Below are positions 6,964-62,048 of a stretch of 64,000 nucleotides of DNA, piece by piece. Every line of letters begins with the position of its first letter. Positions within the stretch are counted from its first letter, which is position 1. Origin of the DNA: Eledone cirrhosa (Eukaryota); NCBI GenBank assembly GCA_964016885.1, contig OZ024753.1, positions 40,486,001 to 40,550,000 of the forward strand. Reading direction: 5' to 3'. A program made the position numbers and the translations under genes. The notes below the pieces were generated by a model that worked only from the letters and a program-made list of their open reading frames with translations, was not told the origin of the DNA and searched no databases.

Positions 6964-7006
6964 ACCGAGCTGAGGATCCGAATGAGGTGAAACATTTGTT
7001 CTCGGT
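6964..7006 (+). ncRNA. Type I hammerhead ribozyme (minimal, PLE-type)
   Basis: ACCGAG-CTGAGGA-T-CC(gaatga)GG-T-GAAA-CA(tt)TG-TT^CTCGGT. 6-bp stem I (ACCGAG/CTCGGT), intact core, GUU cleavage triplet; directly follows a (TA)n tract. Confidence 0.75.
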
Positions 7007-17412: not shown

Positions 17413-17433
17413 TACATATATTTAATATAGAAA

Positions 17434-17484
17434 GGCTTCTACTGGACTAGAACTGTTTCATTCGGGAGAAGTCATCAGGAAGCC
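17434..17484 (-). ncRNA. Type I hammerhead ribozyme (GGCTTC family)
   Basis: Reverse strand reads GGCTTC-CTGATGA-C-TTC(tccc)GAA-T-GAAA-C(agttctagtcca)G-TA^GAAGCC. Homologous to copies at 38490-38585 and 61376-61482. Confidence 0.72.
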
Positions 17485-18378
17485 CTGATGCTTTGTATTG
17501 AGTACCAAACTTACTGTGAATACCCCCAGTTGAACCCGGGTTAAACTTATATATATATATATATATATATATATGCATTTATGTTTAAATACGTATGCAT
17601 ACTAGGGTTTCGATTAGTTTCATTAAGTGTGTGTATGTGTGTGGGGTGTATGTGGGAGTGTGTCTTTGTGTGCGATTCTCGCTATCGCTACTCGGAGTTT
17701 TCCGCTTCTGTACAATCTTTTAGTCGATACTGTAGTAAATGGAAAATAGTTAAGAAAAATAGTGGATTGAATTATTACTGATTCCTTGCTATCTTTGGTT
17801 TTTACACTTGAGCTAGTTATTTTTAGTGTCCTCTGTTTTTAGAGGCTCAGATTCCACTCTCTTCTTTTCACTGATCTTTGATCTTGAGCCAGGATGTAAA
17901 ACTTCGCCACGGGACGTAAAATTTATCTATTTACTCCACTCCTGTAAAGATATGCAGCCTGTATATTACCCAATATTATAAAGAATTTTTAACTTTCATT
18001 ATATTTCCAGATGTATTTTATAGAAGAATAGTGTTGATACCATCTGTGAATCTAAACTTGTAAATGTACTGATGGAATATACCGTGGTGTAGATTCAACC
18101 AGCGGTTATGAAAAAACAACGCAGGAGCAAAGGACTCCTAGCTGTGACCAGCCAGTATACTGTAGATTACATTCACCATATCTTTACTGGTTTCACTCTT
18201 TGTAAATGTTCCATGCAATGTAATATCCTAGAAGGTATTTATTGCAATATAACAACCTTAGTGCTAATAGATAAGTCTGTTAGTTATTTTAGTGATTTCT
18301 GTTTCTGGAAACACCATGCACCATGCTATGGGACATAACTACAGAGAGCTAGTTTTTATACAGTGCAAAATTAAACAC

Positions 18379-28963: not shown

Positions 28964-29305
28964 ATATATATATATGTATATATATGTATATATATATATA
29001 TATATATATGTAGATAAATCTACCAAGAGTTTACGGTAGTGTCCAATCCGTATGAAGAACTCAATGTATTCCGGATATCATGGAAAGAAGAGATGCAATG
29101 AAAAATCACTTTCGGTGAAAGATAAACGGAATACAGAGTCAAGATAAAATATTAATATATATATATAAAGGTTAAACAAGATTCAATGAATAAAACAAAG
29201 AATGAGTTTTACAATAGATTGGAAGCACTCAACAAGAATGGTTTTCCGGAGTTACTAATATTAATTCAAAATATTAACAAAAGTAGACATTCGTGTGATC
29301 AAGTA

Positions 29306-29372
29306 TATTTTATTATACATATTTCAGAGGTTCTTAGTTAACTTCAACCATACGTCCTCATCAGATAAAATA
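29306..29372 (-). ncRNA. Type I hammerhead ribozyme, left arm of 329-bp palindrome
   Basis: Mirror copy of 29468-29534. Core and stem I intact; distal stem II more degenerate. Confidence 0.65.
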
Positions 29373-29467
29373 AGATGATGCATGACATACCCTGACATAG
29401 TAGATGGTTAAGATTTCATGACCGAATCTTAACCATCTACTATGTCAGGGTATGTCATGCATCATCT

Positions 29468-29534
29468 TATTTTATCTGATGAGGACGTACTGTTGAAGTT
29501 AACTCAGTACCTCTGAAATATGTATAATAAAATA
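29468..29534 (+). ncRNA. Type I hammerhead ribozyme, right arm of 329-bp palindrome
   Basis: TATTTTAT-CTGATGA-GGACGTACTG(ttgaagttaact)CAGTACCTCT-GAAA-TATGTA-TA^ATAAAATA. 8-bp stem I, ~9-bp stem II. Confidence 0.8.
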
Positions 29535-29724
29535 CACTTGATCACACGAATGTCTACTTTTGTTAATATTTTGAATTAATATTATATATATATAGTTAGA
29601 GAAGTTAATTGAGTGGCTGCTATTTGCAGTATAGCAATATAAGGTTGCACTTACCAATGAAACTGTCGTAAATACCTGGATTAAATCCTTCTCTTAATGC
29701 TTACCTGTGTTTTCTCTTTTATAC

Positions 29725-45259: not shown

Positions 45260-45295
45260 TCTTCTGATGAAGGACTAGCGTCCGAAACGTTAAGA
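45260..45295 (+). ncRNA. Minimal type I hammerhead ribozyme (classic PLE pLTR form)
   Basis: TCTT-CTGATGA-A-GGAC(tagc)GTCC-GAAA-CG-TT^AAGA. Palindromic AACGTT stem III (dimer-type); lies in a pyrimidine-rich module 45221-45382 between (TA)n tracts. Confidence 0.75.
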
Positions 45296-52494: not shown

Positions 52495-52750
52495 ATATTA
52501 ATAAATGGAAACTATATTTATAAAACCATATTTATTTTATTATACATATTTCAAGGGCAACCAAGGCAAATTATGGTGCGCTTTCATCAGATAAAATACA
52601 GATTTGTTTTATAAATAAATATTGACATACCCGGAAAAAAAGCCAAGCTTAACGGTTGGAGCTTCGGAAGCCTTGGTTGCCCTTGAAATATGTATAATAA
52701 AATAAATATTGTTTTATAAATATTGTTTCCATTTATTAATATATTGTATA
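52491..52750. repeat. Inverted repeat (~77-bp arms) of an HHR module
   Basis: 52491-52567 pairs with 52670-52750. Confidence 0.9.
52533..52598 (-). ncRNA. Type I hammerhead ribozyme (TATTTTAT family) in fold-back element
   Basis: Reverse strand reads TATTTTAT-CTGATGA-AAGCGCACCA(taatttgcct)TGGTTGCCCTT-GAAA-TATGTA-TA^ATAAAATA. Confidence 0.75.
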
Positions 52751-60764: not shown

Positions 60765-61426
60765 TGTCAATTACTATTATATACAATACACCTATACCCA
60801 CCTGCCGTAAATTTAGCGGAAAAACGATATATATTGAGTTTGCTGATTTGTATATTTTATTCTTTACTCTAGTGTATTTTCAAACTTTATATTTCGTGGT
60901 GTATATGATGGTGGTGGTGGTGGTGCTTGTGTTGGTGGTGGTGGTGGTGCTTGTGTTGGTGGTGGCCGTGGGGATGGAGGTCGTAGTGGTGGCGGTGGTG
61001 GGGTAGTCTTCCGTGCAAGGCCTGATAGAAGGCATAAAGTTGTTTCTTCTCTTATGTTACTGAGCTCTTGTTAGTTACCTGTAGATCTTACTCACGCCTT
61101 TCTCTCAATCTCCTCATTTCCCACACTCCAACCCCTTTTATGTATGTAGCCTCTTTTTCTCTTTTTCTCCTTCGCTTTATATGTGTATGTGTGTGTGAAT
61201 GACGGTATATAAGCAAACACATATATATATGCATAAAAACACACACATACATATCCGTAAGAAATTATGAACGCATTCTTCTTTTTATGATTGTCTCCTA
61301 TATGTATGTAGATGTGTTTGTATATATATATATATGTATATATACATTTAATATAGATTTATATATATTTAATATAGAAATGGCCTCTACAGCACTAGAA
61401 CTGTTTCATTCGGGAGAAATCATCTG

Positions 61427-61476
61427 GGCTTCCTGATGATTTCTCCCGATGAAACAGTTCTAGTCTCGTAGAAGCC
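61427..61476 (+). ncRNA. Type I hammerhead ribozyme (GGCTTC family) in fold-back element
   Basis: GGCTTC-CTGATGA-TTTCTCCCGAT-GAAA-C(agttctagtctc)G-TA^GAAGCC. Inverted partial copy at 61376-61424. Confidence 0.65.
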
Positions 61477-61514
<38 letters not shown>

Positions 61515-61681
61515 GGGATATCAAATTATTGTTATAGGTAGTCCACTTAGATGTAGTCCAGTTAGGGTACTCCGAGTAGTGGATAGTATTAACTCATGAC
61601 TAAGTTTGAATCAACAAGACATTTCTATAATGATGCTGCGAGTACGCGGTGATTTCTATGTAGTTTACACTTAGAGTAATA

Positions 61682-62008
61682 ATAAATCCAGAAAGAAGAG
61701 TGACATGGTTTGCTATGCAATAAGGGCTTTATTCACATTGCTGACAATTGTTTCTCTGAACTGGTAGGTCTAGAGATCGCTACCCGCCTGTTTTTGCGTC
61801 AATCGATCACCAATACTTTGTTATAACCATCCATTCACCTCGCATGCTCTGATGAATGCACTGGTTATAACAAAGTATTGGTGATCGATTGACGCGAAAA
61901 CAGGTGGGTAGCGATCTCTAGACCTACCAGTTCAGAGAAACAATTGTCAGCAATGTGAATAAAGCCCTTATTGTATAGCAAACCATGTCACTCTTCTTTC
62001 TGGATTTA
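61682..62008. repeat. Long inverted repeat (~147-bp arms, ~32-nt spacer containing CTGATGA)
   Basis: 61682-61829 pairs with 61862-62008; (TA)n follows. Confidence 0.95.
61843..61955 (+). ncRNA. Type I hammerhead ribozyme with greatly extended stem II
   Basis: CATGCT-CTGATGA(61849-55)-aTGcACTGGT...~60 nt...ACCAGTtCAga-GAAA(61937-40)-CAATTG-TC^(61948)AGCAATG, then AATAAA at 61958. GUC triplet and palindromic ACAATTGT stem III. Confidence 0.7.
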
Positions 62009-62011
62009 TAT

Positions 62012-62048
<37 letters not shown>

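What the first reader, a model, noticed from the sequence alone, without database searches (positions are those of the whole stretch)
61682..62008. Hammerhead with an ~80-nt extended stem II inside a 147-bp-arm fold-back
Seen: CTGATGA (61849) and GAAA (61937) are separated by ~80 nt. This insert is closed by TGcACTGGT/ACCAGTtCA and contains an inner GATCG/CGATC helix. It is followed by palindromic CAATTG, a canonical GUC cleavage site, stem I partner AGCA, and AATAAA 10 nt downstream. Standard HHR descriptors with short stem II limits could miss it. The left arm is the antisense of everything except the CUGAUGA-containing loop. Inference: this is a distinct HHR architecture whose activity would be masked when the whole hairpin is transcribed.
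Basis: partly seen in the sequence, partly recalled or inferred. Interest (0 to 1): 0.75.

Follow-up and report, generated by a model that had tools for sequence, protein, structure and literature searches.

The report
Long-armed hammerhead of Hydra retrotransposons
This hairpin is a short, mirror-image leftover of a known kind of jumping gene (a Penelope-like element), and the self-cutting RNA motif it carries has a second arm of about 80 bases whose predicted fold is kept across many related families, likely as a grip for the element's own protein, though cutting and binding are untested.

Summary
Observation confirmed: 147-bp arms with 3 differences, hammerhead core, 81-nt helix II, palindromic helix III, GUC site. 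The unit is larger than flagged (about 61512-62008). It is a head-to-head pair of 5'-truncated ends of a Hydra-clade Penelope-like element, flanked by microsatellites; full-length pLTR-ORF-pLTR copies exist. The fold-back is an insertion by-product, not a regulator: head-to-head spacers run 143-4324 nt, and 45 of 49 tight copies carry the known 'tail' on exactly one end. The long helix II is real at family level: homologous 77-83 nt arms in families down to 42% identical show compensatory changes and invariant internal-loop motifs. Genome-wide, 8,822 motif matches have 38-98 nt arms (control 86); published Hydra hammerheads have 12-26 nt and Rfam misses these. Against: this copy's arm folds no better than shuffles, its helix II base is privately mutated, copies do not pile up at the cut site, some related copies have altered cores, and no RNA evidence was obtained. 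The scan already noted long-armed hammerheads in this genome and two others. Verdict: new variant of a known kind; interest 0.45.

The parts
61512..62008 (.). Whole insertion: two head-to-head 5'-truncated ends of a Hydra-clade Penelope-like element
61512..61681 (-). 170-nt 'tail' of the long end; in full-length copies it runs on into the 5' leader of the ORF (ATG about 50 nt further). 61512-61513 is the TA of the target
   Evidence: L081, L206, L207
61683..61829 (-). Left arm: element sense on the minus strand; the junction cuts into the core, so no intact CUGAUGA on this strand
61830..61861 (.). Inversion junction; the left arm ends at a TTCA/TGAA inverted microhomology (read from the sequence)
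61862..62008 (+). Right arm, ending at the short 3' end of the element and (TA)n
61845..61848 (+). Helix I 5' strand TGCT (predicted extension upstream to about 61840)
61849..61855 (+). Core CUGAUGA
61856..61936 (+). 81-nt helix II: basal stem 61857-61865 with 61926-61934; near-invariant GUA 61875-61877 opposite GAC 61921-61923; middle stem 61879-61887 with 61912-61920; internal loop 61888-61892 with 61907-61911; apical stem 61893-61895 with 61904-61906; variable 8-nt loop
61937..61948 (+). GAAA core, self-complementary ACAAUUGU (61940-61947, predicted 8-bp dimer helix III, -6.4 kcal/mol), GUC; predicted cut after 61948
61949..61952 (+). Helix I 3' strand AGCA
61958..61963 (+). AATAAA, likely the element's poly(A) signal; A(A/T)TAAA lies 2-20 nt after the cut in at least half the members of 22 of 32 motif clusters (background 2.7% of windows)
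61479..61511 (.). (CT)n microsatellite flank
62006..62047 (.). (TA)n target flank

Best explanation
The locus is a decayed, head-to-head pair of 5'-truncated ends of a Hydra-clade Penelope-like retrotransposon, likely made when the element's enzyme cut a (TA)n tract and copied its RNA from both DNA ends, and the hammerhead it carries is the element's terminal-repeat ribozyme, predicted to cut at GUC as a pair of copies and likely helped by the element's protein binding the long helix II. Shown: identity of the element, its two fixed 3' ends 170 nt apart, one tail per insertion, variable junctions, the motif in both direct repeats of full-length copies, covariation of helix II across families. 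Inferred: two cDNAs primed from the two DNA ends at the two start sites and joined at short inverted microhomologies; dimer formation through ACAAUUGU between the two terminal repeats of a tandem transcript; protein docking on the invariant GUA/GAC and AGU/AG loops; an uncut or re-joined RNA as the template, since copies read through the cut site. The fold-back would bury the motif if transcribed but has no evolved role.
For: Upstream of the motif lies an RT + GIY-YIG ORF with RWK, DKT, CxCX5C, CxxC and CxH (2 of 2 full-length loci), the Hydra definition. L206 and L207 are motif-tail-ORF-motif units of 3992 and 3643 nt. One long plus one short end in 45 of 49 tight fold-backs (script gave 44; L044's tail is) and 17 of 18 wider pairs, none long-long. 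Among the 44 scored long/short loci the core is on the long arm only in 16, short only in 10, both 11, neither 7, as a symmetric two-ended process predicts. Inverted copy, tail and (TA)n bias are published; in vitro a Penelope-like protein cuts and extends both strands, starts at two internal sites, and its hammerhead cuts only with protein present. Helix II: 33 sequences, 89% of cells paired, 11 of 24 pairs with double changes, score 0.337 against 0.187 shuffled and at most 0.104 slid; RNAalifold recovers 8 of these pairs unaided; column-swap null 70 double-change cells against 23 (0/5000) and 9 pairs against 5.1 (13/5000). Selected on the apical stem only, 25 of 30 loci have the 3' core, 17 the 5' core, 13 both.
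Against: No cleavage, binding or expression was measured. This copy's arm: z -0.86; whole motif z -0.54; the hammerhead fold lies 4.5 kcal/mol above the minimum and helix I pairing is 0.05. Within the family alone RNAalifold gives -0.37 kcal/mol and only 4 of 28 pairs show double changes (81/500 shuffles). Further pair types in the cross-family test are not above shuffles (93/500), several double changes are G-C to A-U and could follow an AT drift, and the 33 rows are about eight lineages chosen by me. No excess of copies starting at the cut site (4 of 57 starts over 14 positions, hand count; 2 in the first 100 hits). Several related copies share altered cores (CUGAUGU in L313, L320, L337, L206; CCGGUGA in L311, L312). 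An arm's own partner is its nearest sequence in only 16 of 39 loci. A large family thrives with an 11-nt arm, so a long arm is not a general need.
Confidence: 0.65

Rival explanations
1. The long helix II works in RNA only: its internal loops dock on the extended helix I and make a protein-independent ribozyme.
For: Invariant loop letters across families; helix I can extend past an internal loop; loop-loop contacts speed natural hammerheads.
Against: The invariant GUA/GAC loop lies well beyond the 4-5 bp helix II of contact-forming hammerheads; the sequence 5' of helix I varies between families while the loops do not; tested metazoan Penelope hammerheads are slow.
Confidence: 0.15
2. Cutting is dispensable or vestigial; the long arm is the working signal (RNP assembly or 3'-end formation next to the poly(A) signal) and the core is carried along.
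For: Shared non-canonical cores in related copies; no cut-site pile-up; cleavage was not needed for insertion in vitro and no reads ended at the site in the anole element; conserved A(A/T)TAAA.
Against: Both core halves and a self-complementary helix III persist across 32 clusters with unrelated or 42-65% identical arms (these were selected on the core), and 14,588 matches stand against 127 controls.
Confidence: 0.15
3. One reading: the left arm is an antisense mask that regulates the ribozyme.
For: Pairing probability of all hammerhead helices is 0.0 in the fold-back; 61 tight fold-backs exist.
Against: Only 61 tight pairs against 2374 family hits; 1 of 23 head-to-head pairs in the first 100 hits is this tight; junctions vary and often remove the core.
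Confidence: 0.03
4. A fold-back DNA transposon or MITE with a chance hammerhead-like motif.
For: Long terminal inverted repeat, TA-rich flanks, 4 of 49 copies are pure palindromes.
Against: Arms are the ends of an RT-endonuclease element; ends are asymmetric; centres differ.
Confidence: 0.02

Closest known systems
Hammerheads of Hydra-clade Penelope-like elements (Craig et al. 2021, PMC8557442; passages, section 11, supplement parts 1, 2 and 52 of 59 read)
   Same: Clade motifs, (TA)n targets, inverted 5'-truncated copy, tail at one end, type I core, self-complementary helix III, unpaired letter on each side of the helix II base (U opposite U in 14 of 26 Hydra rows of File S2).
   Different: Listed Hydra spacers are 12-26 nt single hairpins; here 81-83 nt with three stems and invariant loops. 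The tail is 170 nt, not 30-40.
Minimal hammerheads of metazoan Penelope-like elements (Cervera and de la Pena 2014, PMC4209133; parts 1-3 of 4 and supplement passages read)
   Same: Short helix I, palindromic loop 3, dimer logic, opposite-strand pairs 100-700 bp apart.
   Different: G10.1-C11.1 absent; helix II beyond the descriptor limit (7 bp plus 10-nt loop).
PAc hammerhead of the anole Poseidon element (Frangieh et al. 2024, PMC11167929; parts 1-2 of 4 read)
   Same: Two fixed reverse-transcription ends defining a tail; copies read through the cut site.
   Different: Other clade; ORF starts inside helix II there, about 280 nt after the cut here; protein dependence is shown there and only inferred here.
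PLE-X1 hammerheads of spike mosses (File S2 of PMC8557442)
   Same: Penelope-like element with an enlarged helix II region (54 and about 48 nt), flagged as deviating.
   Different: Plant, endonuclease-free elements; single cases, no conserved multi-stem arm described.
Inverted pLTRs of Adineta vaga Penelope elements (Arkhipova et al. 2013, PMC3846280; passages read)
   Same: Head-to-head inverted pLTR with palindromic junction and optional tail.
   Different: Explained there by self-priming on an antisense template; the one-long-one-short ends and either-arm core here fit two-ended priming better (inference).

Membership tests
Hydra-clade Penelope-like element | Single ORF with RT and C-terminal GIY-YIG endonuclease | tested here: met
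   RT motifs (FDITMG, YRDD) then YIG in L206, L207, L081-L083, L093. Pfam gave no match for one 498-aa piece; assignment rests on motifs.
Hydra-clade Penelope-like element | RWK motif, DKT for DKG, CxCX5C linker, CxxC and CxH near the C end | tested here: met
   against the definition
Hydra-clade Penelope-like element | Placement inside the Hydra clade on an RT tree | not tested
Hydra-clade Penelope-like element | pLTR direct repeats, inverted 5'-truncated copy, optional tail, (TA)n targets | tested here: met
Neptune-clade Penelope-like element | CX2-5CxxC linker | tested here: not met
   Linker is CxCX5C
Type I hammerhead ribozyme | Core CUGANGA, GAAA, NUH in order with helix I closing | tested here: met
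Type I hammerhead ribozyme | Helix II pairing next to the core | tested here: inconclusive
   Family and relatives pair from the second position on; this copy's private changes shift the register by one or leave two mismatches
Minimal PLE hammerhead (2014 definition) | G10.1-C11.1 pair; helix II of 3-7 bp with loop of at most 10 nt | tested here: not met
   A opposite A in 92 of 96 members of the main cluster; 81-83 nt arm; definition
Minimal PLE hammerhead (2014 definition) | Palindromic helix III or loop 3 | tested here: met
   ACAAUUGU, predicted 8-bp duplex
Type I hammerhead ribozyme | Self-cleavage at the NUH site | not testable with these tools
   Indirect test (copies starting at the cut) negative
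Non-LTR retrozyme | Tandem non-coding units each with a hammerhead | tested here: not met
   Copies are truncated ends of a coding element; definition (part 1 of 5 read)
MITE or fold-back DNA transposon | Fixed symmetric termini and constant interior, no RT link | tested here: not met

The most novel reading that the evidence does not exclude
A whole lineage of Hydra elements has grown a conserved 80-nt, three-stem RNA domain on the hammerhead that is the family-specific docking site for the telomerase-related reverse transcriptase, making a protein-gated ribozyme: cutting happens only inside the transposition complex, and thousands of such ribozymes per genome are invisible to current searches.
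Probability: 0.3. Interest if true: 0.75.

Novelty: new variant of a known kind. Interest (0 to 1): 0.45.

Why it matters
What hammerheads do in Penelope-like elements is an open question (stated in PMC8557442 and PMC4209133), and the one element tested in vitro needed its protein to cut. A large, covarying arm with invariant loops gives a concrete handle: it can be cut back or swapped between families to ask whether it binds the protein, gates cleavage or sets template choice. It also shows that short-helix descriptors undercount: 8,822 of 14,588 matches here have arms of 38 nt or more. The strict one-long, one-short end pattern is a genome-scale test of two-ended priming. The locus itself is a dead fragment.

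Tried and rejected
Rfam: only microsatellite and generic hairpin matches. First clade guess Neptune: dropped. RNAalifold within the family: uninformative. Cut-site footprint: three incidental copies begin at +1 or +2 (L221, L225, L206), but two wider tests found no excess. In one search, of 100 listed rows (168 matches) I set aside 40 as indels or other families and 3 as ambiguous; the other 57 spread over positions -7 to +7 as 5,2,2,3,1,5,3,4,2,4,7,10,5,4; two of eight rows (L033, L170) were cut 7 nt off and dropped; the other helix II rows gave z -0.86, -6.42, -1.22, -1.23, -2.44; basal-stem pairs were mis-numbered and redone. Pfam found nothing for one ORF piece. A loop-E (bulged-G) reading of GUA/GAC is recalled, fits imperfectly and was not tested. 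RNA editing of this hairpin: all 3 arm differences are G-U on the plus strand, 2 being A to G, too few to read. Linking the 56-63 nt families to an ORF: only 1 of 30 loci hit, in the opposite orientation, so unshown. Not-in-print claim rests on searches of an open-access library; one supplement file of PMC4209133 was not searchable, bioRxiv supplements were closed, and the 2017 Terminon paper was not read.

Full report
Observation. The arms 61683-61829 and 61862-62008 are 147 bp with 3 differences. Rfam has no hammerhead match here at E up to 10 nor in 6 related loci. The helix II start TGCAC is private to this copy (1 of 85 instances), the base of helix II is A opposite A, and the 81-nt arm alone folds no better than shuffles (z -0.86).

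What it is. The window lies in a 3.0-Gb genome. A DNA search scored 40 of 2435 candidates, all 40 matching. In most copies one arm runs on for 170 nt to a second fixed end before (TA)n, so the unit here is about 61512-62008. A pattern for the 5' side of the motif gave 175 hits; 29 of 30 loci shown continue upstream into shared element sequence that leads to an RT and GIY-YIG ORF. L206 and L207 are complete motif-tail-ORF-motif units of 3992 and 3643 nt with RWK, DKT, CxCX5C, CxxC and CxH, the marks of the Hydra clade. My first label, Neptune, was wrong; earlier scan notes prompted the check.

The fold-back. A family 17-mer has 2374 hits; 61 loci are fold-backs as tight as this one. Among the first 100 hits I count 23 head-to-head pairs with spacers of 143 to 4324 nt, one in the tight class. 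Ends are strikingly ordered: 45 of 49 tight loci and 17 of 18 wider pairs have one long and one short end, none two long ends. The core survives on the long arm, the short arm, both or neither (16, 10, 11, 7 of 44). Inverted truncated copies and a one-sided tail are published traits, and the anole element's protein cuts and extends both strands from two internal start sites. I infer two cDNAs primed from the two ends of a cut and joined at short inverted microhomologies. In the full hairpin no hammerhead helix forms, so masking is real physics but a by-product.

The long helix II. A generic core pattern gives 5766 matches with 8-37 nt spacers, 2980 with 38-67 and 5842 with 68-98; reversed controls give 41, 50 and 36. 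Among 40 loci taken from the long classes, 14 have ORF pieces related to this family, several in the expected place upstream (L167, L176, L174, L155, L181; 42-83% identical). I aligned 33 homologous motifs with 77-83 nt arms, pairwise 42-100% identical in the arm. A structure with three stems gave 89% paired cells, 11 of 24 pairs with changes on both sides, and a score above all 500 shuffles and all slid controls. RNAalifold found 8 of the pairs unaided. My own column-swap null, which keeps relatedness, gave 70 against 23 double-change cells (0/5000) and 9 against 5.1 pairs (13/5000). GUA opposite GAC and AGU or AUU opposite AG are nearly invariant. Selected on the apical stem only, 25 of 30 loci have the 3' core and 17 the 5' core. 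Caveats: about eight lineages, rows chosen by me, many G-C to A-U changes, pair types not above shuffles (93/500), and weak signal inside the family. Other long arms (56-63 nt; 93-97 nt with a branched fold) exist; their relation to this one was judged by eye only.

Does it cut? Untested. The hammerhead fold of this copy is 4.5 kcal/mol above its minimum and helix III needs a partner (8-bp duplex), as for other Penelope hammerheads, which are slow in vitro. An unpaired base of helix II has precedent: 14 of 26 Hydra rows in File S2 show U opposite U. I looked for copies made from cut RNA. Three begin at the site, but the first 100 hits of a post-cut 25-mer gave 2 and a targeted search gave a flat spread. 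Copies thus come from uncut or re-joined RNA, as in the anole system. Some related copies share altered cores. A(A/T)TAAA follows the cut in 22 of 32 clusters, so cutting in the 3' repeat would part the RNA from its likely poly(A) signal (inference).

Mechanism. Most likely the tandem transcript pairs its two hammerheads through ACAAUUGU, and the element's protein, docked on the long arm, assists folding and cutting (0.65 for the whole reading; about 0.97 for the element identity, 0.85 for the fold, 0.6 for cutting in parents, 0.4 for docking). Rivals: RNA-only tertiary contacts (0.15), dispensable cutting with the arm as signal (0.15), regulatory mask (0.03), MITE (0.02).

Comparison and novelty. 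Hydra hammerheads, inverted ends and tails are known. Published Hydra spacers are 12-26 nt, the longest listed Penelope-like case is 54 nt, and the 2014 descriptor stops near 25 nt. Five literature searches and passages of two further papers (PMC6155905; PMC13725137, where 'long' helix II means 6-8 bp) showed no description of an 80-nt conserved arm. Unchecked scan notes report long arms in this genome and two others; none matched this sequence or place. Verdict: new variant of a known kind, interest 0.45.

Noticed in passing
window 61377-61481 and 17416-17490: A second small family: a 105-nt palindrome with a hammerhead-like motif (core at 61433, 11-12 nt helix II, helix I GGCTTC with GAAGCC); a single-arm relative at 17478 on the minus strand.
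   Followed up: partly
window 29280-29560: Another head-to-head fold-back (-214 kcal/mol) with hammerhead-like cores at 29364 (-) and 29476 (+), 32-nt helix II; related single motifs at 52590 (-) and 13069 (-).
   Followed up: partly
window 45260-45295: Textbook minimal hammerhead with extra A and G-C base pair, missed by Rfam's listed rows.
   Followed up: no
window 6965-7005: Short-arm hammerhead (12 nt) of the family that dominates the 8-37 nt class.
   Followed up: partly
L178-L180, L183, L185, L186: Family with a 93-97 nt helix II predicted to branch into two hairpins, a different long-arm design.
   Followed up: no
L121-L149: Families with 56-63 nt arms sharing AGAGUC and CGAG loop motifs and visible compensatory changes; ORF link not shown.
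   Followed up: partly
L313, L320, L337, L206; L311, L312; L207: Shared non-canonical cores (CUGAUGU, CCGGUGA, CCGAAGA) in related copies, hinting that lineages spread with weakened ribozymes.
   Followed up: no
L221:472-532, L225:533-593, L206:2580-2631: Short copies that start at or one base after the predicted cut site; not enriched genome-wide.
   Followed up: yes
L037, L063: A roughly 180-200 nt unrelated repeat inserted into element copies at an ATTATT site with duplication.
   Followed up: no
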